A stretch of 64,000 nucleotides of DNA from Trypanosoma brucei (Eukaryota): contig CM000208.1 of assembly GCA_000002445.1 (NCBI GenBank), forward strand, positions 3,360,001-3,424,000, written 5' to 3'. The position numbers and the translations under genes were made by a program. This document shows, in pieces, positions 9,351-40,076 of the stretch. The notes under the pieces are model-generated. The model was given only the letters and a program-made list of their open reading frames with translations. It did no database searches and was not told where the DNA came from. The stretch's first letter is position 1; every line of letters begins with the position of its first letter.

Positions 9351-10650
9351 GGTGAAAAATATTCCCCTTGCGTTTTACCTTTGCTTTTAACCAGGCACCA
9401 TAAATGTTATTTGGAATTCCATTTAGTATTATAATTCTTCCTTTTTCCTTCATGCAGATTAGTGTGGCACAAAATATTTGTACAGAAAAAGTCCAAAGAT
9501 ACCTCCAAACAATGGAATAACTAGTGGAACCCAGAAATAATAATTTGCATGTGAAAACACCTTCCCACCATAAAGAAAAGAAGAGAAGACCCTGGGACCG
9601 AAGTCACGAGCCGGATTTATTGCGTAACCCGTTGAGTAACCGATGTTATTGCCAATGGCGAAGACAAGAGCACCAACTGCCAACGGCTCGTGTCCCTTGG
9701 CAGGAGAGTTATTGGGGTCGAAGATACCGCAGACACAGAACAATAGCATCGCCGTACATATAAACTCACCAAAGATACAAGAAAATAGACCATTTGAATC
9801 CCTTGGGTAGGTGCTGAACACACCTGCGGTCCCCTTTTCACCGAAGGCAATCAACTCACCACCACCATGCGCCTTCAGGAGATCAGCAAACACTCCGTAA
9901 GCGCAGGCAGCACCAAGAAAGGCACCGAGCATCTGCGCCGCGATGTAGCCGGGGACTTTTCTCCAAGGGAAATCACCGAAAACCGCATTGCCAACGGTGA
10001 CGGCGGGATTAAGGTGGCCGCTCGAGATACCCAATGAAACATACAGAGCCATCGTGACGGCAATGCCCCAACCAAGCGTAATGCTGAGGAACCCCAGTTT
10101 CCCATCAATGATAACCGTGGCGACCACACCATTACCCATAAAGAGCAGGACGAAGGTTCCCAGCAGCTCCCCCATGTAGTCGCGGTAATTTAGCCGCAGT
10201 TCCCGTGGTGCCCAAAAGTTGATGCCTCCCGGTACTTCCTCTTGAGCCTCCGCCACCTCATGTTTCCGGTTGCTACTGTCGTCGTTTCCCTGAACACGGA
10301 CCTCCACTGTTCCATCCTTATTAACCGCTTGTAGCTCCATGGGATACGCCACATTGTCTGGTTGGCTCTGCATTCTGATTTTCTGGAGCTTTTTTTTCTT
10401 GTTGCTCGAATTCAATTTTTAAATAATGTCTGATGTGCTGAAGGCGCTACCTAACAATTGTTTTTGTTTCCTCCTACACTGTTACACAAATAGTCAGCAG
10501 CGGGCGATAGAATAGGGGGAACGGGGTTTATAAGGTAGCAAAGCACCTTGCGTGACGCAAGAATGAATGTTCGGAAGTGAGGAAAGTAATATCGACAGCA
10601 TTAACAAGGAATTCCCACATGCGCATGCGTGTGCGTAGAGGAGTGAAACG
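9351..10650. repeat. Tandem duplication unit 1 (AQP3 gene with 3'UTR and 235-bp 5' flank)
   Basis: Paralogous to 11120..12446. The 5' flank 10416..10650 is identical to 12212..12446, and the first about 130 nt of CDS are identical. The 3'UTRs are about 80% identical. Confidence 0.85.
9459..10415 (-). CDS. AQP3: Aquaglyceroporin 3 (canonical NPA/NPA plus Arg filter)
   Basis: 318 aa MIP-family protein. First motif [11 protein letters not shown], second motif [11 protein letters not shown] (NPA followed by the conserved Arg). Six predicted TM segments. The N-terminal 44 aa are identical to the paralogue downstream. Confidence 0.9.
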
Positions 10651-11119
10651 AAGAGCAATATCGCTAATCGTAATTTGAATGCCTCTCCGAGGCACATCGT
10701 TGCGTGGTAACGTAAACAAATGGGATGGGGAGAGGAAAGTGAAAGAGGGTGGAAGATGTGGCAACCTACTAAGGTTCCGTCATGTATTCCCTTCCTCCAC
10801 ATTATTATTGTTATATATTTCTACCCGCTGAATAAAAATAGACAAGTGATAAAAATAAGGGATGATGAAAAGACAAACACAGCATTTACCTCTACAGGGG
10901 CACCGCACCCTCTCGGTTAAACCGCTATAAACTCCTTACAACACATCCTTATTGTTTGATCCCATTCTCTTTCTTTTATGCCCCTTAGGTTAAATTATAA
11001 TGTGACATAACAGAGCAGTTTGCCTTCGCCTTTGGAGAAGGCAAAAACTTCAACGCTCACCGTTTCACCCGCATTCTTCGGGAGAAACAAAACCTCTCTG
11101 TTATATTCTTAACTCATAT

Positions 11120-12446
11120 GGTGAAAAATGATCCCTTCGTTTTATTTTTCATCTTTCCTTTTAGCTAGGCACCATCAATGTTATTTGGAATTCCACTAAC
11201 CGTCAATACCCTTCGCCCTACCCTGGCCGATTAGTGTGGAAGAAAATATTTGTACAGAAAAAGTCCAAGGATAGCTCCAAAGAATGGAACAACTAGTGGA
11301 ACCCAGAAATAATAATTTGCATGTGAAAAAACTTCCCCCCCGAGAAGGATCGCACCGAAGACCCTGGGACCGAAATCAAGTGAGGGATTCATCGCAAGGG
11401 GAGACGCTAAGCCGAAGTTGTTGACCATGACGAAGACAAGAGCACCAATAGCTACCGTTTCGTACCCCTTGGCAGGAGAGTTATTGGGGTCAAAGATACC
11501 GCAGACACAGAGCAGTAGCACTGCGGTGGAAATGAGTTCAGCAAAAATTGGATAAAATATACCATTTCCTTCCGCGGGGTACATGGCAAACACCCACGCA
11601 ATCCCCTTTTCACCGAAGGCAATCAACTCACCACCACCATGCGCCTTCAGGAGATCAGCAAACACTCCGTAAGCGCAGGCAGCACCAAGGAAAGTGCCGA
11701 GCATCTGCGCCGCGATGTAGCCGGGGACTTTTCTCCAAGGGAAATCACCGAAAACCGCATTGCCAACGGTGACGGCAGAGTTGAGATGGCCACCGGAGAT
11801 GCCCAGTGAAACATACAGAGCCATCGTGACAGCCACACCAATACCAATCGTAAGACCGAGAAGCCCAAAATCTGGAACAAGTAGTGAGGTGATAACCGCG
11901 CCCTTAGCGATATATATGAGGACGAAGTTTCCCAGAAATTCAGCCACGTAGTCGCGGTAATTTAGCCGCAGTTCCCGTGGTGCCCAAAAGTTGATGCCTC
12001 CCACGGGTTTCTCTTGAGCCTCCGCCACCTCATGTTTTTGTACATCTGCATCCCACCGCTCATTGCTACTGTTGTCAACGTTTCCCTGAACACGGACCTC
12101 CACTGTTCCATCCTTATTAACCGCTTGTAGCTCCATGGGATACGCCACATTGTCTGGTTGGCTCTGCATTCTGATTTTCTGGAGCTTTTTTTTCTTGTTG
12201 CTCGAATTCAATTTTTAAATAATGTCTGATGTGCTGAAGGCGCTACCTAACAATTGTTTTTGTTTCCTCCTACACTGTTACACAAATAGTCAGCAGCGGG
12301 CGATAGAATAGGGGGAACGGGGTTTATAAGGTAGCAAAGCACCTTGCGTGACGCAAGAATGAATGTTCGGAAGTGAGGAAAGTAATATCGACAGCATTAA
12401 CAAGGAATTCCCACATGCGCATGCGTGTGCGTAGAGGAGTGAAACG
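11120..12446. repeat. Tandem duplication unit 2 (AQP2 gene with flanks)
   Basis: See unit 1. The offset is 1769-1796 bp; the 27-bp difference comes from 24 extra coding nt in AQP2. Confidence 0.85.
11231..12211 (-). CDS. AQP2: Aquaglyceroporin 2 (atypical NSA/NPS motifs, Arg replaced by Leu)
   Basis: 326 aa MIP-family protein. First motif [11 protein letters not shown] (NSA, at about 11774-11782). Second motif [11 protein letters not shown] (NPS plus Leu, at about 11378-11389). These are the hallmark residues of TbAQP2, the pentamidine/melarsoprol uptake channel. Confidence 0.9.
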
Positions 12447-13936: not shown

Positions 13937-14473
13937 TATTCAATTTCTTCTCCTTTCCTCAGTTCCTGGTATTAGTTTTTTTTTTTTTCGCCCTTATCAC
14001 ACCTTATCAACTCCTGCCTTTTCTTATCCACCTAATGGAAGCAAATGGTAGTCCGCGGCGCCGCAGCGTAAAGGTCAAAAGGGGAAAATAACAACACGTC
14101 ATAAAAGATAGATAGCGATTGTTTCAAGTGACAATTTGGCACAGCAACGAATCGCACGAAACACGCACGATGATGGGCAACCCGCTCAGCGACAAAGGGC
14201 TCACTTGTGAGCCAAATCGCATAGCCAGCTTCCGCAACAACTGGTGGTACCCATTGAAATGGCTGTCGTAGCCTGCAAGCATATTCTCTCTGTTGTAAAA
14301 GCAACTATAGCGACATAGTTTCCCTTCACAACTTCTTCCACCGTTATCATCATAGACAGGGGGAGGGGTGTTGATAAAAAAAAACTACCCACTCTTTCCG
14401 AACACAACCATCGCATAAAATTAAGAAAATGATACTAATGAGATTGTATAGGATGGCTGACCCCAGAGCTCAC

Positions 14474-26209: not shown

Positions 26210-27550
26210 TTAAACCATCACAAGACCAACTTCATTAGCCGGAATGCTCGGATAAGACCAGTTGTAGAAGTAGTAGTAAAGGTTTCCGTCCCCGGGGCTG
26301 AATTTAAGTTCTTTTAAATACGTCCCATTGTCGTAAATGTCAACAACGTTGCAAACATCGAATCCATTAAGCTTCACGATGATAAGAAGATCATTCACCA
26401 ACTGTGTTATGCTAACGCTGGTTGCAGCGGTGTAGTATACGTACGCTACCTTCAACAACGAGTGGTTACTGTTGCCGATAATGGTAGAAGGAAGTGAATA
26501 GAACGAGAAAAAATCCGTAATCACCTTCTCACAGCCCCCTGTGACACACTTTGTCCCTGTGGGTGTGCCCTTTGAGGCTTTACCGGCATTCTCTTCGTCT
26601 TTTCCTGGACCCACCGGCGACTCCACAACGTAGGAGAATACGACACCCTCGCGGGGGAGGAAGTAATGTGCCACCTCCTCCTCATTGAACACGGGAGCAA
26701 CATCAAACGACGCCAACCTCTTAAGGAGAAGCTGCGTCACCTGTGGGACATCTGCTGGTTCCATGAGTCGCAAACCACGCGTTTTGGTTTTGTCGGGAAG
26801 TCGGTACAGGCGCTCCATAACCGCAACTGGATTCTGAAACCGCTTGTAATGTGGTGGAATCCCAGAAAATTTAACGTCCACAAGCTTCTGTGAGTTCAGG
26901 CTGCGGTGGAAGTAATGGCCTTTGGCAAACGGTGTTGGAAGAAGAGTCCCAGATGTGTAGACGGCGTGCCAAATGTTCATGAGATTAACCCGACGCGTCA
27001 CCTCCTTGATGAGGATGGGCCCAAGTCTTCTCTGCCGAAGTTTTTTGTGCACGCAAAGAAAATTAATCTCGCAAATAGTCTGAGGCTCTAAGTAATCGTT
27101 TATAACCTCTTCTCCTCCATCCTCCCCGTGCTCTCTCTTCTCTAGAACCATTTTTGGAGTGCCTAGGCGCATCGTGATCGGGACACCGGCAACGAACCCG
27201 AGCACCGACTTGTTGGATTTTAGCCGCACACCAACGTGCCACGACTGGTGATATCCCGGAGGCATAAGTGCCCAGCGCAAAAACTCCTCCGAATAGTTGA
27301 ATCGAAACATGCTTTCGCTGTCCTCAACATAATTATCACGAAGAAGTTCGTGGACACCTCGAAGGTCCTCAGGGTTGGCTACATCGGGTGACCACCACTC
27401 AAATGTTGAGGGAAGACTGTACGGCTCAGCAGGTACCGCATCTAAGGATGATTCCATAATAAACCCAACCTTATCGGCATCAGGAGCACCAGGTTGCCGC
27501 ACAGGCTGCGTGCTCCAGAACTGGTGTTCCGTAAATGCTTTGTCAGTCAT
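26210..27550 (-). CDS. NMT: Glycylpeptide N-tetradecanoyltransferase (N-myristoyltransferase)
   Basis: 446 aa. Matches NMT: FWSTQPV near the N-terminus, EINFLCVHKKLRQRRLGPILIKEVTRRVN (acetyl-CoA/myristoyl-CoA-binding fold), and a hydrophobic C-terminus ending ...GLVMV as in NMTs. Confidence 0.9.
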   Translation of the reverse strand: MTDKAFTEHQFWSTQPVRQPGAPDADKVGFIMESSLDAVPAEPYSLPSTFEWWSPDVANPEDLRGVHELLRDNYVEDSESMFRFNYSEEFLRWALMPPGYHQSWHVGVRLKSNKSVLGFVAGVPITMRLGTPKMVLEKREHGEDGGEEVINDYLEPQTICEINFLCVHKKLRQRRLGPILIKEVTRRVNLMNIWHAVYTSGTLLPTPFAKGHYFHRSLNSQKLVDVKFSGIPPHYKRFQNPVAVMERLYRLPDKTKTRGLRLMEPADVPQVTQLLLKRLASFDVAPVFNEEEVAHYFLPREGVVFSYVVESPVGPGKDEENAGKASKGTPTGTKCVTGGCEKVITDFFSFYSLPSTIIGNSNHSLLKVAYVYYTAATSVSITQLVNDLLIIVKLNGFDVCNVVDIYDNGTYLKELKFSPGDGNLYYYFYNWSYPSIPANEVGLVMV

Positions 27551-28094
27551 TTTTCAACAGCGGGCAGACTTCTTCAAGTGATTTAAAACAGTGTCCCTTC
27601 CCCTTCAGTGTGTGTTGCAGCTGTTCCTCGTCGTAATGTGCGGTTGACGTGTCCTATGTGTCACTTCTGTTAATTTATCTTCCCCCTTTCTATTTCGCTA
27701 GATCGACAAAAAAAAACGATATTGCTGGAGCAGAACATTCCGATCGAAACTAAATATAGGCGCTTTAAAAGAAGATTGCACTTTTGTGCCGCAGGACCAC
27801 TCGGAGAAAGCAACAACAAATCCATAAGTCAAGGACGTGCTCATGCTTGTGAGCAACCTCTGGGTTCAACAGCGGATGCATACACATCTGCATTTAGCTC
27901 CCTTATGTGAGATGCGATTCATCCGGTTTGCGGTACACTACTTTTAAACCCACCACTACAACCGTCGCGTCGTATCGACACCCCTTCCCTCCTAAGGAAA
28001 GACAACATCACCCCCATTGAACTCCTACACAAACACACATCAAATGTTCGTTTCACCCACTAACTACGCTACACATATCCGCACACCTTTCCAG

Positions 28095-29003
28095 CTACTG
28101 AACAAAGTCTGGCATCTCTGGCATATCGAGGAGGTCTTGAAGCACACGTGCAGCCACAAGAATACTAGCCCAAAACCACCACTCCCACCGACGTCGTGCT
28201 TCCTCCAGCGAAACCCACCAGATTTCGCGACCCAGTGGCACGGAGTGGCGGGTATTGTGTGTTTCCTTGAGAACAACAACCCCACGCGATGCTTTAATCA
28301 ACTGCGCTACCTCCTCGTGTAGCTTCCCCACGTCTACATCATTGCGACTCAAAATTCGCCTTGTTTGTAGCGACTGCTGCAGAGATCCGTTGATGGCAGC
28401 AACACCAGCGGCGATGCCGGTCTCCATTTTGCTCAAACCACCACCCGCAAATGAGGCGGCTGCCGTGTGGTTCACCTTTACCAAAAAGTTATCGTCTTCA
28501 GCCCTTGTCCCCGTCAGAGGGGTCATGAGGGCCTCACTGCGGTGAGATCCATGTGAAGGCACTATCATTGAGGGGGATACTGGCGTGAACACCGGTCCAG
28601 GCCCGACATATGGACTTGGCAGCTCGACAGCTTGCAGGTATTTTTCGTCCCACTTCGGTATGTGTCGCGTGTAGAAGAACCAACGACGGAATTCCCATTG
28701 CCTCCTCCGACGGAAGCGCATGATGTTCTTGTGGCGAAGGCGTGAATATGTCGGGTATGCGCCCCACCAGGTCCACATTAATAGCATGGTACCGGAAGCA
28801 TACAAGTAGTCACGATACATAACGCTAATTGCCCCAAACAAAAAGTCGGCGCTGCACTCGAATGGGTTCTTATTCTGTCTGGCGATATCCTCCATCAGCT
28901 TCTTCTCGTGAGCCTCATACTTACTATCATCCGCCGTGCGCACCCCTATCTGAGAGACTACCATTCTCACTATGAAGCTGATTTGCAACAGTTGTTTCCC
29001 CAA
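28095..29003 (-). CDS. Hypothetical protein (302 aa), W/R-rich, possibly membrane-associated
   Basis: Minus-strand ORF. Contains hydrophobic stretches (TMLLMWTWWGAYPTY; WWFWASILVAARVL). No family recognised. Confidence 0.45.
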   Translation of the reverse strand: MGKQLLQISFIVRMVVSQIGVRTADDSKYEAHEKKLMEDIARQNKNPFECSADFLFGAISVMYRDYLYASGTMLLMWTWWGAYPTYSRLRHKNIMRFRRRRQWEFRRWFFYTRHIPKWDEKYLQAVELPSPYVGPGPVFTPVSPSMIVPSHGSHRSEALMTPLTGTRAEDDNFLVKVNHTAAASFAGGGLSKMETGIAAGVAAINGSLQQSLQTRRILSRNDVDVGKLHEEVAQLIKASRGVVVLKETHNTRHSVPLGREIWWVSLEEARRRWEWWFWASILVAARVLQDLLDMPEMPDFVQ

Positions 29004-29690
29004 TTTCTTTTTGTTGTTTTTGTTGTTGTTGCTGCCTCTGTGCCTCTATTATATTTCACTCACTTTCTCGGTGACAACAAAACTATTTGCATTTAACGCA
29101 ACGGTTTGCGTCGGCAAGCACTAACCAACCTCCTCGTGTCACCCCGCCTTGGAATCGAAGAGAGCGGAACAGAAGTTAAGGCATTTCTCATCCTTGAAGA
29201 TTAACAGTGCAGGCATCGGACTCCGGGTTCAGGGTGGAGGAGCGTTGCAACGTACGTGTGCCCGTAAATGTACAGGAAAATAAAACCGAAAAAAATAATA
29301 ATAATAAGAGTTGTGATTCAACAACTTCGGCGACGTGAAAGCGCGTTCCAGGCGAGTAAACAGTGATAGCCCTCGTCCTCGCTTTCTCTTAGTCTCGCAA
29401 CCTTACTACCCCCTGCTGCAACTTTCTAGCCTCCCGGCTTGAAAAGGGGCTAGAGAGGGAAAATAAGCCTTAGGAAGTAGTGCATACCGACAGAATAATT
29501 GCACGCCAGTACAGTACCATGTGACACAAGTAGGAAAATACGCGAGTAGTGGGCTCCGGCTCAGCAAGTTGTGCGTAGCCACGAAGACACATCTTTGGGC
29601 AAGAGTACAAAGCTGAACAGATGATACGGGAAAACTTGCATTAAATGCTACACAGGCAGCCCGAGTCTCGTGTTTTGTCGCTCCCCTTTC

Positions 29691-30224
29691 CTACAGTCCT
29701 TTTGATTCTTTGTCCATCATAACCACCGGTTGCAGCACTAAGAGTTTGTTAGTTTCTCCAACCCGACCATTCACAAACATCTCCTCAACGATAAAATGAA
29801 CCTTCTCCAAGTTAAACATAACATCGAGCTCACACACATTCCCAAAGTACTTATCTAATGTCTCCACGAGAAGTTGAATGAACTCGTAAATCGCCAGTTC
29901 CCCTCCTTGTGTCTGCTCCTCAAACGTGTCAGTGTCGAAACCGTTTGCGGGGACTAAACTAAAAGATTTGCCGTTCACTTCCTCACGAAGCGCCTTACGG
30001 TTGTTTAATCCAACGATGAAGAAAAGAGACGCGTAACGCCGATAAACGAGTTTGTAGTGAAGATGATCAAGGAAATTACAATCCGTGTCTCGTCGTTGCA
30101 AACACTTTCGCACAACTTCTCCCTCCAACGCAGTACGCTCAACTATGGGCATAAAAGTGCTATACTGCGCTAACCGGGTTTGGCCCTGTCTGTTCACGAG
30201 AAATATGAACTCAATTGTCGTCAT
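29691..30224 (-). CDS. Adaptor protein (AP) complex sigma subunit
   Basis: MTTIEFIFLVNRQGQTRLAQY...KLVYRRYASLFFIVG...LDKYFGNVCELDVMFNLEKVHFIVEEMFVNGRVGET matches the sigma-adaptin fold (MIxFxLxxNRQGKTRLAKWY...YRRYAGLYF...LDEYFxNVCELDLVFNFxKVYxxxDEMFLAGEIxET). The start is set at the ATG at 30224. An upstream in-frame ATG at 30272 would add 16 aa. There is an about 30-aa insertion relative to typical sigma chains. Confidence 0.8.
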   Translation of the reverse strand: MTTIEFIFLVNRQGQTRLAQYSTFMPIVERTALEGEVVRKCLQRRDTDCNFLDHLHYKLVYRRYASLFFIVGLNNRKALREEVNGKSFSLVPANGFDTDTFEEQTQGGELAIYEFIQLLVETLDKYFGNVCELDVMFNLEKVHFIVEEMFVNGRVGETNKLLVLQPVVMMDKESKGL

Positions 30225-30272
30225 ACAAATGAAGTTGACCTTCACTTCACTTTTTTTTTCCCGCTTCGCCAC

Positions 30273-33200
30273 GCCGTGTTGCGGATATTTGCGGGTCTGG
30301 TGAGGTGGAGGAGGAGGGGGGGGGGGATGGAAATAAAATAAAAAATAAAAACAACAACAGAAAAGTGAAGAAGAGAGAAATGGTGAGAATGGAAGGCGTA
30401 GAAGGAATTGTGCAGAAACGGGATGACAAAATAGATGGGACCCTCATGAGCGTATAATACATTTATTTGTTGATAGATACAGAGGATTCCGCTTTCAACA
30501 AAGGCTCCGTTCCATAAACAACAAAGCGAATCCTAACATGATTTGTTTTTTTTTTAATTTGGCAGTCATATCTTCGCCGTAAAAATATAGAAGAAAAAAA
30601 AGAGATTGCGAGGCCCGTGCGAGAGTAAAGGATAGCACTAGCGACATTAAGATCAAAAGAAAAAGAAACACAACATCACAAAACAAAACAAAAGAATTTA
30701 ACTTTTATCATAAAAATTCAAAAAAAAGCAAAATTAGTGATAATAGCAATAACACCAGTAATAACAGTAGAGAAGTTGTTGAATAGTAATAAAGAAAAAA
30801 AAAAGGAAAACAATCAAAAGAACACCACATAAAAAAAACAAAAGGAAAGGAAGGGGGAAAAAAAGGACAAACAAACAAACAAACAGAAACAACTCTTTTC
30901 TTTGGTTTGCTTTATTACTGTTACTGTTATCGTTATTATTAATTCCTTCGTTTTCTTTCATCATCATGCCTTCAGTTTGCCCGTTGCTTAGTAATTATTT
31001 ATGGTTATAATGATAGTTGCAGCAGCAGTTGCCGAAGCAACAAGTGCGGTCGAAGCAAATAACAGAGAAAACGAAAAAGGAAAAGGAAGAATAGGATGAA
31101 TAAAATAGGCAGGAAAAAAAAAAAAGAGGAAAGAAATGCAGAGAGGAAAAACGAGAGAATAAAAGACAAGAATAAAACAAAAATAGCTTTCGAAAAAAGT
31201 AGCATTTCGTTGGACACACATTAACGGACTTATTAATTAATATGTACCACACCGTAAGATTTTTTTCCCCTTTTTAAAAAAAAGATTTCACCTCTCCCTC
31301 CTCTCATATTTCCTCTGTTTACTTTTGTTGTTTGTTTTTGATTTCGATGCCTTCTTATCCTTTCTTCCGTTGTAGTGAACATATGAATTTCTTTTTTTTT
31401 TTCTTCAAATGTTAATTTATAACTTCAAATATGAACATTAAAATATTTATGCATTTTTGCTTTTTTTTTGTCATTGTGGGCGTTCACTTTTCACTGATGC
31501 CATTAGCAGTACGATCACTTTTTTTTTTCCTCCACTTGACTTAACTTGTCGTTTTGATTTTTAACTATTTATTTGAAATTTTTTTTAAAAAAAGGAGGGG
31601 AAAAAACATTGCCTGTTGCTCCTCTCCCTTTTTTTTTTTTTTTGGGGGGGGGCGTATGTTCCTCGCACAGAACCATTTTGTGCATTTATAATAATTATAA
31701 TTACAATAATAATAATAATAAAACCAGGGGAGCATATCGCAAGGAGGAAAAGTGAGTGAGGGACAAGACTGGGAGAAGCATCAAAACTAAAACTAAAACT
31801 AAAACTAAAACAAAAACAAAAAAAAACAGTTAAATAAAATAAAATCAAGTGACAATTTATGAAAAGAACAAAGAAAAAAACTTTAATAGTGAATTGAATT
31901 GAAAAGCAACTTAACCCATCAATCGACAACAGAGTGTGGGTACTTTTTTTTAAAAAAAAAAGAAAAAAAAGAAAAAAGAAACTGAACTAAAGAGAAGGGG
32001 GAAAAAAATTTAAAAAGAACGAAAAGACAGGAACACACATACACATACACATACATTTATAAATTTATAAATATATAAATGTGTATGGAGATTTTTTTCT
32101 TTTAAAAAAAAAGAGGGGGAAGTAGAAAGGAAGAGAGAAAGAGGAGCAAACTAACTAACTGACTGACAAGAATTAATAATAGAAAGGGGATAATTGGATT
32201 AACACAGGAAAAAACAAAAAACAATAACAATAACAACACATAAACACGCAGACATACACACACACACACACATTTTTTTTAAAAAAAGAAGTGACATAAA
32301 AGAAGAATTAAATGTCCATGAATTCGTTTTATTATTTTAAGTTTTTATGTCTCCCAACACCAACACTAACCGTTTCCATTCCTTTCCTACGAGAGATCAT
32401 GTTGCCAATGGTATTAATAGTTATAATCATAACAGTAACAATAACAATACTAATAATAACAATATTAATAACAACACAAACATGACGCGCCGGATATAAG
32501 TAAGATTAAGAAGTGGAGGGTGGAGATCCTCCGTTACTTCCTTCCTTCCCATTGCGAAGAGGAAAACAAACAAAACAAACAAAACAAAACAAAAAAAAAA
32601 AGAGTGGCACTCAAAAGTACGCGATTGGATGAAGGATAAATAAAAATAAAAAGAACGAAAACGAAATCGGTCAAGATTTTTTTTTTTAAAAAAAAGAAAG
32701 GGAAGAAAAAAGGACGTAGAGACGTACACATGCATATATATAAATATATATATATATATATAAAATAAGCATAGTTAACATATACGCATGGATGTGTACA
32801 GGCATATCTAAACACATATTCGAAGAAAAAAGAAAAAAAGTCCAAAGTAAGCTGAAAACGAAAAAAAAAGAAATTGAAAAAGAGGTAAATAATTAAAAAT
32901 AATTATAATAACAATATATATATATATATATATATAAAGTCGTACATATATAAATATCAATAATTCATTATAATAAAATATAAAAATCTCATCTGTATCC
33001 GAAACACATGACGCAAAAAAAAAAAGAAGTGAGTGAATGGATGTGAACGAGTGGAAGCTCTTTTCACTTAATTTCCTTTTCCTCACCTCTGCACAAACGT
33101 ATTATCAGAAATTTCAGAGGAAATACATATAATAATAACAATAATAATAAAAAAAAAAAGAACAAAACAAAACAAAATAAAACAACAACGACAACAACAT

Positions 33201-36200
33201 GAAAAGAAAAGGAAAGGAAAGGAAAGGCGTGTGTGCGTGTGTATGTGTGTGTATGTTTATGTTTGTGTGATGAAACGGGTATTAGGAGGTTCTGACTCTC
33301 TCTTTTATTTTCATCATCGTCTCAGTCAAAAATTACTTTGTTAAGCTTTAAACAACACATTAAACAAAAAAAAAAAAGAAAAAATGAAAAGGGGATTGAT
33401 AAGGAGGAACAATAACCAAAAAAAAAACAACAACAACAAGAGACTGTGAGTATCATTTTCTTTTCTTTTTTTATTTTTTATATTTTATTTTAAAAAAAGA
33501 GAGGGAAAAATAGAGGGAGAGACGAGGAAAAGGTGAAATGTGTCGGGAGGACACGCAACCCAAGACGAGGGAAGGAAAATATTTTTACTCAAATATTTCA
33601 AACTTCTTCTTTGTTTTTTGTTTTTTTTTCAAGTTTATTTATAAGAACAAACAAAAGATAAGTTCCCCCCACTCAAATCATTTCTAAAAGAGGGAACATA
33701 CTCAAGAAAGAGGTGTAATAAAAGGGAACTGAAGGAACACCCCCCAATTCCCTTCAAAATTTTTAAAAAAAAGAAAAAGAAAGGAAAATATAACTTTCAT
33801 TTCTGAGAATGCGCACAAATAAAGAGTAAGATAAGAGAGAAAGAAGGATTTTAAAAAAAGAAAAAGAAAAAGAAAAAAAGAGAGAGAGAGAGGAATGTAT
33901 GATAATAGATGGAAAAAGAAAGGAGAGGGGTCCAGCAACCGACAAAAATCACAAAACGCACAACAAAAGGAGCCGCACAAAAATAATAAATATTTTGATT
34001 TTTTTATTTTTCATTTCTTTTTCCTCTTCACCTCTTTACCTCTTCATTTTTCATCTCTTTCTTTCTTTTTTTTTCTTTCCACCTTCATCTCCTCTTGTGT
34101 CGTGACGTCGCCGTGCCTTCCACCCCTTTTAAATTAAGATAAAAGTGGGGAAACAAAAAGAATCTCTTCTTTTCCTTTCATTTCATTTTGTTTTTTTTCT
34201 TTCTTCCGGAATGGGCGGATTCATCTTTCTTTTTTTTTCCTCTTTTCTATAAGCACACATGTGCGGCTCGCAATGTTGTGTCCGCCGTGCGAAACAAGTC
34301 CGTGTTTTTTTTTTCTTATCTTTCTCTTTTTTTTACTTTTCTTAAATTTAACTCCTCCTCCCCCCTTCCCCAGTCCTGTTTCTCGCCCTTTCACTCTCGT
34401 ATCAAATCTACTTATGTCTTTTCTTACTTTTCACCTCTCCTCCACTTCTTTCTTTTCTCCTTTTTTTTTCTTTTTAAAGGTACAATACTTTGATCATATC
34501 TTGGATGCTCTCGAGGGATAAGTTTACCAATTTTGTTTTGTCTTCGTTACACTTTACCCCCTTTTCAAACACAAGCAATGCATTGGTATTTTATTTCCCT
34601 TTGTTGCTTGTTCCTTTCTCTATAAATATATAAATATATATAAATATAAATATATATATATATATTATATATATAGTTGTGTATTAAATATACTGCCTCT
34701 TCACTTACCGTTTTGTTGAAGTTCTCCCTTCTTCTTCTTTTCCATTTGTCATTCCTTTTCTTTTTTCGCTTTCTCGACGCTCAACTTTCGCACTTGTGGT
34801 TCTTTAAAATTCCTCTTCCGTTCCCTCTGCTCTTCAGTCACCACTGTAAAAATAATAAATCACAAGTTACATGTCAGTCAAAAATAAACAAATATATATA
34901 TATATATATTTGTTTATTTATAAATATATAATTTCCCCCTTCTTTTTATTCTTCTCTCCCTCCCCTTTTTTCTGCCACCGCCAATTAGAGCTGAACTCTC
35001 CCTCTTTTTTAATTCATTTCCTGTTCCCTGCGCTCAGAGTGAAAAAAAAATGGGAAGCAAAATCATTTAAAGAAACCAAAAGACAAGAACAAAAAAAAAA
35101 GAAAGAGAGATAACACTGGAGGAGGGGATTTTCATACGGCAGAGGTGGTAAAAAGAATCTGAAGGAGGAAACTTAAGTGAAGCTACAAAACAAAGAAGAA
35201 GTAAACAACCGAACAAAGCGAAACAAAAAAAAGAAAAGGAGAACTGGGAAAATAGAAGGGACGAGAAAATAACCAAACATGAATAAGCGAGAAGAGCGCG
35301 CAAACAAACACTTCACAGAAACACACCTCGTCTCGTCAGCCACTTGTGCTTGTGGACGAGGAAATATTTGTCTCTGTTTTAAACATGTCGTGTGATATAT
35401 ATATATATATATATATATATTTGTGTGTGTTGTGTGTGTGTGTAAAAAAGAAAAAAAAAGCGCGCATACACATTTTTTTTAAAAAATTGCAGTGACCGAG
35501 AGATGTAGCCAAAACACTTCATGGTTTTCTGCAGTGGGAAATACACCTGCACGTGCACGTACATGTACATATATATATGTATATATATATATATTGTGTG
35601 TGTGTGTGTGTGAGTTTGTGTGTATGGGAAGGAGGGTGTTGCATAAATAACAGCGGTAGAAGATCTATGCGTACCGTACACACATGACTCTTTGTATCCC
35701 TTTTTTCCCCTATTTTATTCCTTCATGCACAGAACTTTCTTTTACTTCTTCTTGTTCCTTTTCTTTTCACTCCGATACCCCTATTTTTTTTTTCTTGTCT
35801 TCTCTTCTCTTCCCTTCTTTTTTTCTTCTTTGTTTTTTTTTTTCAATTAAATCCATACACATACCACCCTGTCGCTTTTCACGAATACTTCCCCACATAT
35901 CAACTGTTGCAAGGAAAAATAATGTTTTTTTTTGTTTTATCTCAAAACGAAAACGAAAAAACAAACAAACAAAAAACAAAAAAAGATGCTACTTGGCTTT
36001 CTCCACTCACCCCCTCCCCAAGTAAGGCTCGTGCTCACGTTGGAACGTTCATTAACACAAACAAACTAGCTGTATTTTACCCAGTGGGAGGCGCGACTTT
36101 TCTTTTTTCTTTTCTTTGTTGTTGTTATTTTTCCTTCTCTCTTTTTTGTTACCTTTATTTATCTTCGCTTTCCCTCTAGTCGTAAACCCCATCTCCATCC

Positions 36201-36376
36201 CCATCCCCAAGTGATCCGAAATGGAAATCATTATTGGCGCTTTGGCACATAATCTCTCGGATTCGAGTCCTTTGATCCAGACGAAAAGAAAGAGAAGTCA
36301 AAAAGGAAAAAAAAAGAAAAAAAGAAAAAAAAAAGAAAGAAAACAAAAATCAGAGTGCTGTACCCTGTTGGAATAA
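30273..36376. repeat. 6.1-kb ORF-free low-complexity block (homopolymer, oligo-purine/oligo-pyrimidine and short tandem repeats)
   Basis: Alternating A/G-rich and T/C-rich blocks, e.g. (AAAACT)5 at about 31790, (GGAAA)n at about 33205, (TA)n and (TG/CA)n tracts, and long A- and T-runs. Every six-frame ORF here is short and low-complexity (F/L/K-rich). Confidence 0.8.
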
Positions 36377-38410
36377 CTACTCGGGTGGTGAAGGTACGTC
36401 TTCCTCCCACACCCTCGCGACGGCATCTTGATAATCCCTCATGGCTTGCAACATCAAATACGGTGGCAGCGTGGCCAGCGTCCTCAGCAACTTGAGAAAG
36501 CTGCTTAAGACATCATCACCCTGAGTCCGTTGCAACGCGTCATCCATTTCCTCAATGATGAAGGGATCACAGAAGAGAACATTGTTCGGTTGAAAACTCA
36601 CCTCCGGCCCGCGGTCATCCAAAAGAATTACACGATCGAGTGGCCGCCCCAACAGTGAAAGGTCTTTTTTATAGGTATCCCCCACGGCCGTGCAGTGGTG
36701 CCTGTAGAGCCGATGTGCTTTATGGTGAGGGTCCAGATGGTCGAAGATCGAGGTCGCGTACTCCTCTGTACCCGTAGTAAAGAATACAACTTCAAATGTT
36801 TCAAAGCAGTACTCCAGAAGCTCCTTTGCGAAGGGTCTGATACAAACATAAAGACGTTGTTGGAGGCGAGAGCGTGCGCTACACATTGGCGAGAGTTGTG
36901 CTTTCCGGTTGACTAGTTGTGGTGATGAGGGTTGTGATGGGGTGGAGGCACACGCCTTATCTGGTTCATAACCCTCACTACCACAACCTGCGCTGGCTGC
37001 CGCATAGGTGCCGACCTGATCAGCAGAAGTTGGTATGTTCAGTTCGATCTCCAAATGAAAGGAATTCTCCGCCGGGTTCCACCACGAGGGGCGCCTCTCA
37101 AAGGTATGCACAAGGGTGTCATCCAAGTCGAGACAACACGTTGTACGTCCTACATGTTCGCTGCGCTGTTCTGGGAGAAGATACTGCGTTACTTTTCCCC
37201 GGTCCACAGACCCCTGGCGAACAGGTGAGAAATAACCCGAATGATGCGGAGCTGCCTGGACGTCGGGAACATGGAGCTCAGGAGAAGCGCTTGCGCACCT
37301 CTGGGGAGCACAATCTTCCATATGTTCCTGTCGTCGATGGTTACAATGCGGTTCTTCAGCACCCACGCACCTACTAGTAGTAAACCCACGGTCTACCTCC
37401 AAGTAAGAAAGCAGATCGCGCAATAACTGTCCTACAGGCCTGTCAGGGGGCGCCACCGAACTCGCTACCGGTTGAGTGGTCTCCGGCACATATATTTCCC
37501 CTTCGCCGCTGTCGGTGATGTTGGGTGGTTGAATAGTTGACCAGCAATCCGAAAGCCCGCCGTGCCCGCTGGGGCGATCGTGGTTTTTCGCACTTCCACT
37601 GAAAGTTGTTTGATTTTTTGTGTGCCGGGACTGGGAGCTAGGAGCTGAGTTCGTGTCCGATTCATTGGATGAAGGAGTAAGGCCATCCGGTATCAACTGA
37701 TCCAATTCTTTTTTAGGTGATGGGTGCAGCACCTGCGTCGGTTGACGGGAGCTTTTGCGAGTAAGAACACTGGTCATGCCGCCGAAAGCTGCTACTGCTC
37801 CCCCACAGGACACTGGACTGCTATTCTGCGTGCTGGGATACACCGTACCACATTCTACATCTAGTTGTCCGTCTCTCCCACCAAACCGACTCCATGGTGA
37901 GAGCCAACAGGACGTGAGAGCGGGAGACGACTGCGATGGCGTATCTGTTGGGGTGTCGGGTTTACTCAGCTCCTCGAAGCATCCAACAGAAGCGGACCTG
38001 TAAGCTCGGTGGGGAGGAATGTTACCAACTGCCCGCGCTGCAACGTCCTGTTTATCAACTGATGGGTGAATATCAGAACGGCGACCTGCCACAGCTGGAA
38101 CGAGGGTGCTAGGAAGAGCAGAAAATATATTGAATGAGGTGCCATACGGACTGTGACGATATTTCTGGTGGTGCACATTATGCTTCACCTTTCCGCAACT
38201 AGTAGTCGAGATGCCTGATGATCCGCCCATCCCCCAAGTTGTCGATAGTCCTGGATATGGCACGCTGTAGGCACGTGCGAGGCGCAGCGGACTTTGCTGA
38301 TGAGCGCGTACTGAACTATCATGTGGTGAACCCCACTCTTCATAATCCCGTGTCTCCATCTTTCCGTATTGTGGGTTGTCAGGCGGTGCGACGAATCCAC
38401 TACGTCGCAT
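36377..38410 (-). CDS. NIF/FCP1-homology (CTD small phosphatase-like) domain protein
   Basis: 677 aa. The C-terminal region has the DxDxT catalytic signature in context (LDLDDTLVHT). The NIF-domain core follows (YVCIRPFAKELLEYCFETFEVVFFTTGTEEYATSIFDHLDP...VILLDDRGPEVSFQPNNVL). The N-terminal 400 aa are S/P-rich and low-complexity. Confidence 0.7.
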   Translation of the reverse strand: MRRSGFVAPPDNPQYGKMETRDYEEWGSPHDSSVRAHQQSPLRLARAYSVPYPGLSTTWGMGGSSGISTTSCGKVKHNVHHQKYRHSPYGTSFNIFSALPSTLVPAVAGRRSDIHPSVDKQDVAARAVGNIPPHRAYRSASVGCFEELSKPDTPTDTPSQSSPALTSCWLSPWSRFGGRDGQLDVECGTVYPSTQNSSPVSCGGAVAAFGGMTSVLTRKSSRQPTQVLHPSPKKELDQLIPDGLTPSSNESDTNSAPSSQSRHTKNQTTFSGSAKNHDRPSGHGGLSDCWSTIQPPNITDSGEGEIYVPETTQPVASSVAPPDRPVGQLLRDLLSYLEVDRGFTTSRCVGAEEPHCNHRRQEHMEDCAPQRCASASPELHVPDVQAAPHHSGYFSPVRQGSVDRGKVTQYLLPEQRSEHVGRTTCCLDLDDTLVHTFERRPSWWNPAENSFHLEIELNIPTSADQVGTYAAASAGCGSEGYEPDKACASTPSQPSSPQLVNRKAQLSPMCSARSRLQQRLYVCIRPFAKELLEYCFETFEVVFFTTGTEEYATSIFDHLDPHHKAHRLYRHHCTAVGDTYKKDLSLLGRPLDRVILLDDRGPEVSFQPNNVLFCDPFIIEEMDDALQRTQGDDVLSSFLKLLRTLATLPPYLMLQAMRDYQDAVARVWEEDVPSPPE

Positions 38411-39164: not shown

Positions 39165-40076
39165 TTATTTTTCATGGAAACGATAACAACTACAATAACG
39201 ACGAACCACTTCGTATGTTGTAAAGAAGACACTACCGCCGATGGAAATCCACGTTACGCGAGGAACTGCACCGCGGAAGAATCGCTGCATGGGCCCCCAC
39301 CTATCCGTTGGGCGCGGTACTTCATGAAGTAACTCCTGAAGCGCACCACACACCACTGAAAGTTTTTTTGGGCGCCCCGCCCTCGGGCTGCTCACCTGTC
39401 CAAGCATAATGCGCGTCTTCAGAAGGTCTAGCGGTGTTGTAATAAATGCGGCGGTAGCGCCTCCTAATGCGCCACATAGTGGTAAGTAATGGGGCCGTCT
39501 GTCTGTGTGCAGTGCCACTTTGAGTGCCTCATAGCACAACATCTGTATGACAGCGAAAGGGACATCACGTAGCAGCATGACAGGTATCCCACTGAGAAGG
39601 TTCGGAATACCTCGTACTCGCATGCTTGTTGGTGCTGTATCCGTAGCAACACCAGGTGTAACACCGTGAGTTATGTGTACCAATGCGCTGCGCAGGTTCC
39701 TGTGTTGCCCCGCCTGAAGCCGCTGCTTCAGCATCTCTATCGGGACACGAATGCAGGAGGCTGTTGTTTCACCCACCACAGCGGCAGTCGCCTGCGACGC
39801 AAGTTGCCACTGTTTTCTCCCTGCATAAGTCACATCACTTTGCCCATCATCTTCCCCCAACAGAGCCCGCTTTGTCAAGTCGTAACCAACAAAAAATGCC
39901 GCACCACTCGGAACGGAACCAATGGCCACGGCACTGAGGCCACGATAAACGCCGACGAATCCCCCCGCACGGCGGAATCCGTCTCGTGACTGCAGTCGAG
40001 TTTTGATAGTGTCAATCGGGTACAGTGTAAAGTCCACGACAAGACCAGCCGCCGCACCTGCCACAAACGAGTCCAT
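39165..40076 (-). CDS. Mitochondrial carrier family protein, S-adenosylmethionine carrier (SAMC/Pet8)-like
   Basis: 303 aa with tripartite MCF structure. The N-terminus FVAGAAAGLVVDFTLYPIDTIKTRLQSRDGFRRAGGFVGVYRGL...GSVPSGAAFFVGYD matches SAMC (FVASLVAGAAAG...LFPLDTIKTRLQS..GF..AGGF.GIYAGVPS..GSFPNAAAFF.TYE). Confidence 0.8.
   Translation of the reverse strand: MDSFVAGAAAGLVVDFTLYPIDTIKTRLQSRDGFRRAGGFVGVYRGLSAVAIGSVPSGAAFFVGYDLTKRALLGEDDGQSDVTYAGRKQWQLASQATAAVVGETTASCIRVPIEMLKQRLQAGQHRNLRSALVHITHGVTPGVATDTAPTSMRVRGIPNLLSGIPVMLLRDVPFAVIQMLCYEALKVALHTDRRPHYLPLCGALGGATAAFITTPLDLLKTRIMLGQVSSPRAGRPKKLSVVCGALQELLHEVPRPTDRWGPMQRFFRGAVPRVTWISIGGSVFFTTYEVVRRYCSCYRFHEK

What the first reader, a model, noticed from the sequence alone, without database searches (positions are those of the whole stretch)
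30273..36376. 6.1-kb ORF-free low-complexity island inside a directional gene cluster
The AP-sigma gene and the NIF-phosphatase gene are on the same strand and about 6.1 kb apart. That is many times the typical 0.4-1.5 kb spacing elsewhere in this window. The interval consists of alternating oligo(A/G) and oligo(T/C) blocks, (AAAACT)n, (GGAAA)n, (TA)n and (TG)n tracts and long homopolymers. It contains no credible ORF in any frame. Mirror-repeat purine/pyrimidine tracts can adopt triplex (H-DNA) conformations and are nucleosome-disfavouring. Inside a polycistronic unit, such a block could be an unusually long 3'UTR or 5'UTR, a lncRNA locus, or a replication or transcription pause site. It could also be an internal termination and re-initiation site marked by base J or H3.V. 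It is also a likely assembly-problem region.
Basis: partly seen in the sequence, partly recalled or inferred. Interest (0 to 1): 0.55.

Follow-up and report, generated by a model that had tools for sequence, protein, structure and literature searches.

The report
Long low-complexity 3'UTR in trypanosome
The 6.1-kb gene-free stretch is real, but almost all of it is the already annotated, unusually long 3' untranslated region of a Trypanosoma brucei phosphatase mRNA, so it is an ordinary if extreme feature of trypanosome gene regulation.

Summary
The window is Trypanosoma brucei TREU927 chromosome 10. All genes lie on the minus strand. The gap between the FCP1/NIF-like phosphatase Tb927.10.14270 and AP-4 sigma Tb927.10.14260 is 6,152 bp. 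The median gap in the window is 806 bp and the next longest is 2,108 bp. The gap has 32% GC, is rich in repeats, and holds no credible ORF, tRNA or Rfam RNA.

A published table (Trenaman 2024, Supplementary Data 1) annotates a 5,899-nt 3'UTR for Tb927.10.14270. This maps to window 30478-36376, which is 96% of the gap. The rest fits a polypyrimidine tract, an AG splice acceptor and a ~72-nt 5'UTR for AP-4 sigma. An older table gives a 6,384-nt mRNA, so a proximal poly(A) site near 32.1 kb may also be used.

On the mRNA strand, A-rich purine tracts are about 3-fold denser and U-rich pyrimidine tracts about 2-fold denser than in other gaps here. That matches a described class of long regulatory 3'UTRs.

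The long spacer, but not its sequence, is kept in T. vivax, T. cruzi and T. theileri (4.0-4.8 kb). In Leptomonas it is 1.2 kb.

The sequence is not an assembly artefact, although two other assemblies break inside it.

Verdict: already known, low interest.

The parts
36377..38410 (-). [quoted passage not shown] This is the gene that owns the long 3'UTR.
   Evidence: Pfam NIF match, E = 1.1e-33. Exact match to EAN78795/XP_827907/Q388H5. Gene ID taken.
30478..36376 (-). Annotated 3'UTR of Tb927.10.14270: 5,899 nt, low-complexity, 96% of the 'island'. The coordinates are good to about 2 nt.
   Evidence: Trenaman 2024 Supplementary Data 1 gives UTR_Start 3461974 and UTR_End 3467872, minus strand, on Tb927_10_v5.1. 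I mapped this by placing UTR_End on the first base after the stop codon. The offset is 3,431,496 for genes 14270 and 14300 and 3,431,494 for genes 14240 and 14200.
31952..32150 (-). Internal cluster of polypyrimidine tracts: 47 nt at 32150->32104, then 22, 20 and 30 nt at 32033->31952, with AG dinucleotides at 31987 and 31943. This is a candidate signal for a proximal poly(A) site near 32.1 kb and a cryptic trans-splice site.
   Evidence: PPT/AG map. The older published mRNA length of 6,384 nt implies a 3'UTR of ~4.2-4.3 kb that would end here. This is an inference. A genome-encoded A-run at 32100-32086 (mRNA sense) could instead reflect oligo(dT) mispriming.
30297..30380 (-). Terminal polypyrimidine tracts (22 nt and 50 nt) and the first AG (30298-30297). 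This is the predicted trans-splice acceptor region of AP-4 sigma, which would also set the distal poly(A) site of Tb927.10.14270.
   Evidence: and the sequence. The annotated poly(A) site at ~30478 lies 98 nt upstream of the tract and 181 nt upstream of the AG. Published distances are 80-140 nt from poly(A) site to tract and a median of 142 nt from poly(A) site to splice site.
30225..30296 (-). Predicted 5'UTR (~72 nt) of AP-4 sigma, Tb927.10.14260.
   Evidence: Inferred from the first AG after the polypyrimidine tract. Not tested against spliced-leader reads.
29691..30224 (-). CDS of Tb927.10.14260, AP-4 complex sigma subunit (177 aa).
   Evidence: Pfam Clat_adaptor_s match. Exact match to EAN78794. 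Orthologues are named AP-4 sigma.
34054..34973 (-). Segment where the plus strand is T/C-rich, so the mRNA is rich in A/G tracts. Together with 35798-36147 it makes the proximal ~2.3 kb of the UTR rich in poly-purine tracts. The distal ~3.6 kb is rich in poly-pyrimidine tracts.
   Evidence: GC skew -0.44 and AT skew -0.38 for 34001-35000. List of purine/pyrimidine runs. Tract counts per 500 nt.
31579..35486 (.). Five palindromic T(8-11)A(6-10) junctions at 31579, 31944, 32273, 32677 and 35473. In the mRNA sense each usually follows a C/U tract.
   Evidence: 5 observed against 0.2 expected from first-order Markov simulations, with at most 2 in any of 500 simulations. Only one more occurs in the rest of the window, and none in the T. 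cruzi, T. theileri or T. vivax spacers. Function unknown.

Best explanation
The interval is the 3' untranslated region of the FCP1/NIF-like phosphatase mRNA Tb927.10.14270 of Trypanosoma brucei TREU927 chromosome 10. After it come the ~180-nt processing spacer and the ~72-nt 5'UTR of the next gene in the same polycistron, AP-4 sigma (Tb927.10.14260).

RNA polymerase II reads through the whole region from right to left. The polypyrimidine tract at 30380-30302 directs trans-splicing of AP-4 sigma at the AG at 30298-30297. By the usual coupling, it also directs polyadenylation of the phosphatase mRNA about 180 nt upstream, at ~30478. This gives an mRNA of about 8 kb. An internal cluster of polypyrimidine tracts near 32.0-32.15 kb probably gives a second, shorter isoform of ~6.4 kb. 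In that case a ~1.5-kb non-coding by-product would also be made.

The alternating A-rich purine and U-rich pyrimidine tracts that make the DNA look odd are the typical content of long regulatory 3'UTRs in trypanosomes.

What is shown: the anatomy, the published UTR coordinates, the low mRNA level and the conserved spacer length.

What is inferred: the UTR acts as a platform for RNA-binding proteins and for masking of purine tracts by pyrimidine tracts, and its length keeps the mRNA scarce through slow processing or length-dependent loss of the precursor.
For: - Identity. All window proteins tested match TREU927 entries exactly, and EAN78794 (AP-4 sigma) and EAN78795 (phosphatase) carry consecutive accession numbers.
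- UTR coordinates. The published 3'UTR of Tb927.10.14270 is 3461974-3467872 on the minus strand, 5,899 nt. This maps to window 30478-36376.
- Processing geometry. The poly(A) site, polypyrimidine tract and AG are spaced as published norms predict.
- Older data. A 'filtered mRNA length' of 6,384 nt, 0.49 mRNAs per bloodstream-form cell, a half-life of 32.8 min, and an abundance 0.11 of the model prediction, class 'Low'. The authors read that class as slow or inefficient processing, and built length-dependent precursor loss into their model.
- Nothing else is encoded there. No ORF, Pfam domain, tRNA or Rfam RNA, and no blastn or tblastx conservation across species.
- Tract density on the mRNA strand. 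7.6 A-rich purine and 9.3 U-rich pyrimidine tracts per kb, against 2.4 and 4.3 per kb in the other gaps. Trenaman 2024 describes long (>2 kb) 3'UTRs dense in both tract types.
- Precedent. 3'UTRs of 5 kb or more with numerous low-complexity sequences are documented, for example RBP10 at 7.3 kb. DRBD12 has an 8.4-kb mRNA, and internal polypyrimidine tracts in long 3'UTRs are normally kept unused by DRBD18.
- Conservation of length. The spacer is long and ORF-free in T. vivax (4,841 bp), T. cruzi (4,251 and 4,286 bp) and T. theileri (4,041 bp), while the neighbouring gaps are 0.4-1.0 kb.
Against: - I could not look at RNA-seq, spliced-leader or poly(A) reads myself. The UTR coordinates come from a published table, and I did not check how that annotation was made.
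- The two published lengths disagree: a 5,899-nt UTR against the ~4.2-4.3 kb implied by a 6,384-nt mRNA. The isoform structure is therefore unsettled. The shorter value could be an oligo(dT) mispriming artefact at a genome-encoded A-run (32100-32086).
- Regulatory activity is not shown. One reporter fragment from the UTR had no reads. The other (window ~32524-34518) was only weakly 'increased' (log2 fold change 1.66, FDR 0.072, very low counts).
- In T. brucei the region has clearly lower GC than its neighbouring gaps. In the other species the long spacer has ordinary intergenic composition. The extreme low complexity may therefore be neutral microsatellite growth.
Confidence: 0.87

Rival explanations
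1. The distal part of the interval (about window 30450-31990) is a separate spliced-leader-capped, polyadenylated non-coding RNA (a lncRNA or 'UTR-internal transcript'). It would be made when the internal polypyrimidine cluster near 32 kb is used.
For: - The older mRNA length of 6,384 nt implies a poly(A) site near 32.1 kb.
- That site would lie 120-200 nt upstream of AG dinucleotides that follow a dense cluster of polypyrimidine tracts.
- Kolev 2010 described UTR-internal transcripts with little coding potential, seen by Northern blot for other genes.
- The sense-strand ATG ORFs in this stretch are all under 80 aa, the longest listed being 77 aa, and low-complexity.
Against: - The newer annotation runs the UTR through this stretch.
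- The supplement of a nanopore lncRNA study does not mention either flanking gene.
- The 6,384-nt value could come from mispriming on a genome-encoded A-run.
- There is no sequence conservation outside Trypanozoon.
Confidence: 0.25
2. The interval is a boundary inside the polycistron: a site of transcription termination and re-initiation marked by base J/H3.V and H2A.Z/H4K10ac, or a replication or transcription pause site. Its large size would reflect broad chromatin domains.
For: - Internal initiation sites exist in T. brucei polycistrons.
- The spacer is exceptionally long, and this is conserved across Trypanosoma.
- It is rich in purine/pyrimidine and A/T tracts that disfavour nucleosomes.
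Against: - A mature mRNA UTR is annotated across 96% of it.
- Genes 14240-14270 are absent from the supplementary text held for the base J/H3.V termination study.
- There is no tRNA gene.
- Gene orientation and the cumulative GC-skew trend continue unchanged across it.
- Chromatin data could not be examined.
Confidence: 0.05
3. The interval is neutral junk. It would be a 3'UTR or spacer that grew by microsatellite and homopolymer slippage, or by decay of an old gene or mobile element, and its length and composition would have no function.
For: - Between TREU927 and T. b. equiperdum it has 17.8 substitutions per kb and 8.5 indel events per kb. That is no slower than the other gaps (8-28 substitutions and 0-4.3 indel events per kb). 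Most indels lie in repeats.
- There is no alignable sequence between species.
- UTR sequences are known to diverge quickly.
Against: - With that much indel turnover, a spacer of 4 kb or more kept in four Trypanosoma lineages, while all neighbouring gaps stay at 0.4-1.0 kb, points to constraint on length or on dispersed elements.
- There is no trace of a decayed coding sequence.
- Tracts of this kind act in reporter assays genome-wide.
Confidence: 0.2
4. The interval is an assembly artefact of the reference, such as a collapsed or chimeric repeat region.
For: - T. equiperdum OVI has five N-gaps inside it.
- T. b. gambiense DAL972 breaks at window 34422-34580, with N-gaps on both sides.
- T. grayi contigs end 200 bp upstream of AP-4 sigma.
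Against: - An independent T. b. equiperdum chromosome assembly with no N runs is collinear across the whole interval. It shows 98.2% identity at aligned bases and a net length difference of 270 bp.
- OVI is collinear between its gaps at 99.6% identity.
Confidence: 0.02

Closest known systems
Long, low-complexity regulatory 3'UTRs of T. brucei mRNAs, e.g. [quoted passage not shown]
   Same: - Multi-kb 3'UTR inside a polycistron.
- Numerous low-complexity elements, including (AU)n repeats.
- Many internal polypyrimidine tracts that could act as cryptic processing signals.
- Enriched in both A-rich purine and U-rich pyrimidine tracts.
- Low mRNA copy number.

   Different: - The owner is an FCP1/NIF-like phosphatase. 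[quoted passage not shown]
- No regulatory fragment has been shown for this UTR. The reporter signal was not significant.
- Stage regulation was not examined here.
UTR-internal or intergenic non-coding transcripts and lncRNAs of T. brucei (Kolev 2010; Guegan 2022, 'grumpy')
   Same: A candidate internal splice and poly(A) signal could release a ~1.5-kb ORF-less RNA from the distal part of the UTR.
   Different: - No direct evidence that such an RNA exists.
- No snoRNA or structured element was detected.
- Not conserved in sequence.
Polycistron-internal termination and initiation sites marked by base J/H3.V and H2A.Z/H4K10ac
   Same: An unusually wide gene-free gap between two genes on the same strand.
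   Different: - A mature UTR spans the gap.
- The flanking genes are not in the supplementary text held for the base J/H3.V study.
- There is no tRNA gene.
- Chromatin was not examined.

Membership tests
Trypanosomatid mRNA 3'UTR (long regulatory class) | Lies between the stop codon and a mapped poly(A) site of the upstream gene, on the transcribed strand | tested here: met
   The published UTR coordinates 3461974-3467872 (minus strand) for Tb927.10.14270 map to window 30478-36376. I did not inspect the reads behind that annotation.
Trypanosomatid mRNA 3'UTR (long regulatory class) | The poly(A) site is followed by a U-rich polypyrimidine tract and an AG acceptor for the next gene, at the usual distances | tested here: met
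   The tract starts 98 nt after the annotated poly(A) site and the AG lies 181 nt after it. Published norms are 80-140 nt to the tract and a median of 142 nt to the splice site.
Trypanosomatid mRNA 3'UTR (long regulatory class) | No protein-coding or structured-RNA gene inside | tested here: met
   Only low-complexity ORFs of 113 aa or less from an ATG start, with no Pfam match. No tRNA, no Rfam match at gathering score, and no tblastx conservation across species.
Trypanosomatid mRNA 3'UTR (long regulatory class) | Longer than 2 kb, with a high density of both A-rich poly-purine and U-rich poly-pyrimidine tracts | tested here: met
   5.9 kb, with 7.6 purine and 9.3 pyrimidine tracts per kb against 2.4 and 4.3 per kb in the other gaps. 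I used a simple run-based proxy, not the FIMO motifs of the paper.
Trypanosomatid mRNA 3'UTR (long regulatory class) | Demonstrated effect on expression | tested here: inconclusive
   Reporter fragments: one had zero reads, and the other was 'increased' at FDR 0.072 with very low counts. The mRNA is 9-fold below the model prediction in bloodstream forms.
Independent lncRNA gene | Own spliced-leader acceptor site and poly(A) site giving a discrete stable RNA without an ORF | not testable with these tools
   Only sequence signals and an indirect discrepancy between two published lengths (against 75-76).
Polycistron-internal termination/initiation site (base J, H3.V, H2A.Z, H4K10ac) | Chromatin marks and a break in nascent transcription | not testable with these tools
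   No ChIP or nascent-RNA data are available here.
Polycistron-internal termination/initiation site (base J, H3.V, H2A.Z, H4K10ac) | Downstream genes listed as de-repressed when base J or H3.V is lost | tested here: not met
   Tb927.10.14240 to 14270 are absent from the 11 supplementary files held for PMC4721952. This is a weak test.
H-DNA (intramolecular triplex) forming sequence | Homopurine-homopyrimidine mirror repeat | tested here: met
   Three loci have perfect mirror arms of 10-13 nt (31956-31981, 33853-33879, 36307-36338), and none occurs elsewhere in the window. All three are very A-rich.
H-DNA (intramolecular triplex) forming sequence | Triplex formation in vivo or under supercoiling | not testable with these tools
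   This needs chemical probing.
Assembly artefact | Not reproduced in an independent contiguous assembly | tested here: not met
   Collinear in the T. b. equiperdum chromosome assembly CM010681, which has no N runs, at 98.2% identity.

The most novel reading that the evidence does not exclude
The length of this spacer, rather than its sequence, is under selection across the genus Trypanosoma. It stays at 4 kb or more in four lineages despite complete sequence turnover, but is only 1.2 kb in Leptomonas, where the phosphatase is a bare 225-aa domain. On this reading the UTR acts as a length-dependent 'dampener' that holds an FCP1-like phosphatase below one mRNA per cell. Alternatively, its distal 1.5 kb is released as a functional non-coding RNA.
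Probability: 0.15. Interest if true: 0.4.

Novelty: already known. Interest (0 to 1): 0.15.

Why it matters
It matters little for discovery. The interval is already annotated as a 3'UTR in the T. brucei reference, and it fits a well-described class.

It is still useful as a calibration case. In kinetoplastid polycistrons, a multi-kb, ORF-free, AT-rich, tract-rich gap downstream of a gene should first be read as a long regulatory 3'UTR.

The modest new points are these:
- The long spacer is conserved in length, not sequence, across Trypanosoma, and is short in Leptomonas.
- This goes together with an N-terminal extension of the phosphatase.
- Such UTRs are places where short-read and Sanger assemblies break.

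Tried and rejected
- Hidden genes. The Rfam gathering scan of the whole window found nothing. The permissive scan of the island gave only repeat-driven, sub-threshold miRNA and snoRNA look-alikes. ARAGORN found no tRNA. Pfam found nothing on the ten longest ORFs.
- Conserved elements. blastn (word size 7) and tblastx among the T. brucei, T. cruzi, T. theileri and T. vivax spacers gave only low-complexity matches of 42 nt or less, and no coding signal shared with T. brucei. Direct and inverted repeat searches gave only low-complexity families.
- Orthologue retrieval. A search with the full phosphatase found only T. grayi and one fragment. I switched to AP-4 sigma and the 289-aa neighbour as anchors. 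T. congolense was not found, so no footprinting at intermediate evolutionary distance was possible.
- Literature look-ups with no result:
  - A full-text search for the gene IDs gave one irrelevant hit.
  - No supplement text is held for the DRBD18, ZC3H28 and Guegan lncRNA papers.
  - There were no hits in the Kolev 2010 supplements, which are probably truncated or use old gene IDs, in the nanopore lncRNA supplement, or in the base J/H3.V supplements.
- An exact-protein look-up of the window's NMT found no contig, and the TREU927 record itself could not be fetched.
- Rejected ideas: an assembly artefact of the reference, a decayed gene or retroelement remnant, a snoRNA cluster, and a strand-switch region.

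Full report
**Where the window comes from**

Eight ORFs of the window, looked up from their ATG starts, match GenBank entries of Trypanosoma brucei brucei TREU927 chromosome 10 exactly. They run from EAN78784 (AQP3) and EAN78785 (AQP2) to EAN78798 and EAN78799. The phosphatase ORF matches EAN78795 in the same way. The accession numbers of AP-4 sigma (EAN78794) and the NIF phosphatase (EAN78795) are consecutive. This suggests that the record has no protein-coding gene between them.

Gene IDs from a published table:
- NMT: Tb927.10.14240
- 289-aa hypothetical protein: Tb927.10.14250
- AP-4 sigma: Tb927.10.14260
- 'TFIIF-stimulated CTD phosphatase, putative' (Pfam NIF): Tb927.10.14270
- MCP20: Tb927.10.14280

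Every large ORF taken as a gene is on the minus strand. Transcription therefore runs from high to low window coordinates. The interval lies downstream of the phosphatase stop codon and upstream of the AP-4 sigma start codon.

- The gap is 6,152 bp from stop codon to ATG. Across all 20 gaps in the window the median is 806 bp, and the next longest gap is 2,108 bp.
- GC is 0.324, against 0.443 pooled over the other gaps and 0.523 in coding sequence.
- Homopolymers of 8 or more bases cover 7.2% of the gap, against 1.7% in the other gaps.
- Pure purine or pyrimidine runs of 15 or more bases cover 17.0%, against 4.2%.
- 25 of the window's 36 such runs of 20 or more bases lie here.
- Tandem Repeats Finder reports the named repeats.
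- The ORFs are short and low-complexity, and the ten longest have no Pfam match.
- There is no tRNA and no Rfam family at gathering score. The permissive scan gave only repeat-driven matches far below threshold.

**What the interval is**

Supplementary Data 1 of Trenaman et al. 2024 (PMC11405848) lists, for UTR_Gene_ID Tb927.10.14270 on the minus strand, UTR_Start 3461974 and UTR_End 3467872 on Tb927_10_v5.1. That is 5,899 nt.

I placed UTR_End on the first base after the stop codon (window 36376). The UTR then spans window 30478-36376, which is 96% of the gap. The same offset (3,431,496) fits Tb927.10.14300. Genes 14240 and 14200 fit 3,431,494. The mapping is therefore good to about 2 nt.

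The remaining 253 nt fit standard trypanosome processing signals on the mRNA strand:
- polypyrimidine tracts of 22 and 50 nt at 30380->30302;
- the first AG at 30298-30297;
- about 72 nt of predicted 5'UTR before the AP-4 sigma ATG at 30224.

The annotated poly(A) site lies 98 nt upstream of the tract and 181 nt upstream of the AG. Published figures are 80-140 nt from poly(A) site to tract and a median of 142 nt from poly(A) site to splice site.

**Isoforms**

An older table (Antwi et al. 2016, PMC4845500, Table S1) gives a 'filtered mRNA length' of 6,384 nt for Tb927.10.14270. With a 2,034-nt CDS and a 5'UTR of roughly 80-120 nt, this implies a 3'UTR of ~4.2-4.3 kb that ends near window 32.1 kb.

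That position lies just upstream of a cluster of polypyrimidine tracts: 47 nt at 32150->32104, then three tracts at 32033->31952, with AGs at 31987 and 31943. A proximal poly(A) site coupled to a cryptic splice site is therefore plausible. It would release a ~1.5-kb ORF-less RNA from the distal part. Kolev et al. 2010 described such UTR-internal transcripts for other genes.

There is a caveat. The mRNA sense has a genome-encoded A-run at 32100-32086, so the shorter length could come from oligo(dT) mispriming.

The mRNA strand of the gap carries 35 polypyrimidine tracts of 20 nt or more. This is the situation in which DRBD18 is reported to suppress internal processing in long 3'UTRs.

**How it probably works (inference)**

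On the mRNA strand the interval has 7.6 A-rich purine tracts and 9.3 U-rich pyrimidine tracts per kb. The other gaps have 2.4 and 4.3 per kb. The purine tracts dominate the proximal ~2.3 kb and the pyrimidine tracts dominate the distal ~3.6 kb.

Trenaman et al. report the following:
- A-rich poly-purine tracts raise translation in a dose- and density-dependent way.
- U-rich tracts may mask them by base pairing.
- Long (>2 kb) 3'UTRs dense in both tract types are over-represented among mRNAs that are translationally up-regulated in bloodstream forms.

Purine and pyrimidine arms that could pair are present in the UTR. One example is 35783-35831 with 36302-36350, which are 76% complementary.

In bloodstream forms the mRNA is scarce, at 0.49 copies per cell. 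It is 9-fold below the level predicted from its 32.8-min half-life. The authors attribute that class to slow or inefficient processing, and they model length-dependent loss of precursors.

Direct regulatory evidence for this UTR is lacking. One reporter fragment had no reads. The other (window ~32524-34518) was 'increased' at FDR 0.072 on very low counts.

Very long, low-complexity 3'UTRs are documented elsewhere in T. brucei. RBP10 has a 7.3-kb 3'UTR with 'numerous low-complexity sequences' and (AU)n repeats. DRBD12 has an 8.4-kb mRNA. The genome-wide median 3'UTR is 388 nt, with a range up to about 6,000 nt.

**Comparison with other species**

| Species (locus) | Phosphatase -> AP-4 sigma spacer | Neighbouring gaps |
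|---|---|---|
| T. b. brucei TREU927 (window) | 6,152 bp | 544-754 bp |
| T. b. equiperdum (L003) | 5,882 bp | not measured |
| T. vivax (L011) | 4,841 bp | 717-919 bp |
| T. cruzi (L004, L005) | 4,251 and 4,286 bp | 446-865 bp |
| T. theileri (L007) | 4,041 bp | 645-1,033 bp |
| Leptomonas pyrrhocoris (L013) | 1,203 bp | 662-1,534 bp |

Sources. The neighbouring gaps are MCP->NIF, AP-4 sigma->289-aa gene and 289-aa gene->NMT.

- Gene order is the same in all six.
- In Leptomonas the positional orthologue of the phosphatase is only 225 aa, and its reading frame cannot be extended upstream.
- No sequence or coding similarity links the spacers of the four Trypanosoma species compared, as expected for UTRs.
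- Within Trypanozoon the interval shows 17.8 substitutions and 8.5 indel events per kb against T. b. equiperdum. The other gaps show 8-28 substitutions and 0-4.3 indel events per kb. Most indels lie in repeats.
- So length is retained while sequence turns over. This hints at constraint on length or on dispersed elements but does not prove it.

**Assembly**

- The reference sequence is sound. A T. b. equiperdum chromosome assembly with no N runs is collinear across the interval.
- T. equiperdum OVI has five N-gaps in the interval.
- T. b. gambiense DAL972 covers window 48335-34580 in one place and 34422-19709 in another. Each piece ends in an N-run, and about 108 kb of other genes sits between them in the scaffold. 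This is probably a scaffolding problem.
- T. grayi contigs end 200 bp upstream of AP-4 sigma.

**Rival readings**

- Polycistron boundary marked by base J/H3.V. Nothing supports it. A UTR spans the gap, there is no tRNA, the skew trend is unchanged, and the flanking genes are absent from the supplements of the base J/H3.V study. Chromatin data could not be checked.
- H-DNA. Three A-rich mirror-symmetric purine tracts exist. Triplex formation cannot be tested here.

**Verdict**

The feature is already annotated and belongs to a known class, so interest is low.

Noticed in passing
window 34422-34580; L002 13840-13940; L010 5057-5795: In the T. b. gambiense DAL972 chromosome 10 scaffold (FN554973.1) the two halves of this 3'UTR lie about 108 kb apart. 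Each half ends in an N-run. Between them sit unrelated genes (MFS/OATP, RRM, mevalonate diphosphate decarboxylase and others; the protein accession numbers differ by 68). TREU927, T. b. equiperdum and T. equiperdum OVI are contiguous here. This is probably a block placed wrongly into a sequencing gap. A real rearrangement is not excluded.
   Followed up: partly
window 31579, 31944, 32273, 32677, 35473 (and 20239): Palindromic T(7-11)A(6-10) junctions. Five occur in the island, against 0.2 expected from first-order Markov simulations, and one occurs in the rest of the window. A(n)T(n) junctions never occur. The motif is absent from the T. cruzi, T. theileri and T. vivax spacers. In the mRNA sense most sit right after a C/U tract. 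The genome-encoded A-runs could mislead oligo(dT)-based poly(A) site mapping.
   Followed up: partly
L013 6972-7649 versus window 36377-38410: The positional orthologue of the phosphatase in Leptomonas pyrrhocoris is only 225 aa, a bare NIF domain, and its frame cannot be extended upstream. In Trypanosoma species it is 636-757 aa. The N-terminal extension and the long 3'UTR occur in the same lineage.
   Followed up: partly
window 39165-40076 (-): MCP20 (Tb927.10.14280) is a 303-aa ORF here, identical to the T. equiperdum protein. The TREU927 GenBank protein EAN78796/XP_827908 is only 189 aa. This looks like an old start-codon annotation issue.
   Followed up: no
window 9459-12169 (-): The window contains the tandem AQP3-AQP2 aquaglyceroporin locus. 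The same protein clusters hold many AQP2/3 chimeras from T. b. gambiense and T. evansi. From my own knowledge, not checked here, this is the melarsoprol/pentamidine cross-resistance locus.
   Followed up: no
window 26210-36376 versus Tb927_10_v5.1: The offset between window and v5.1 coordinates is 3,431,494 for genes 14200 and 14240, but 3,431,496 for genes 14270 and 14300. This implies a 2-bp difference somewhere between 26.2 and 36.4 kb, probably in a homopolymer of the UTR, or else a difference in how the UTR ends were annotated.
   Followed up: no
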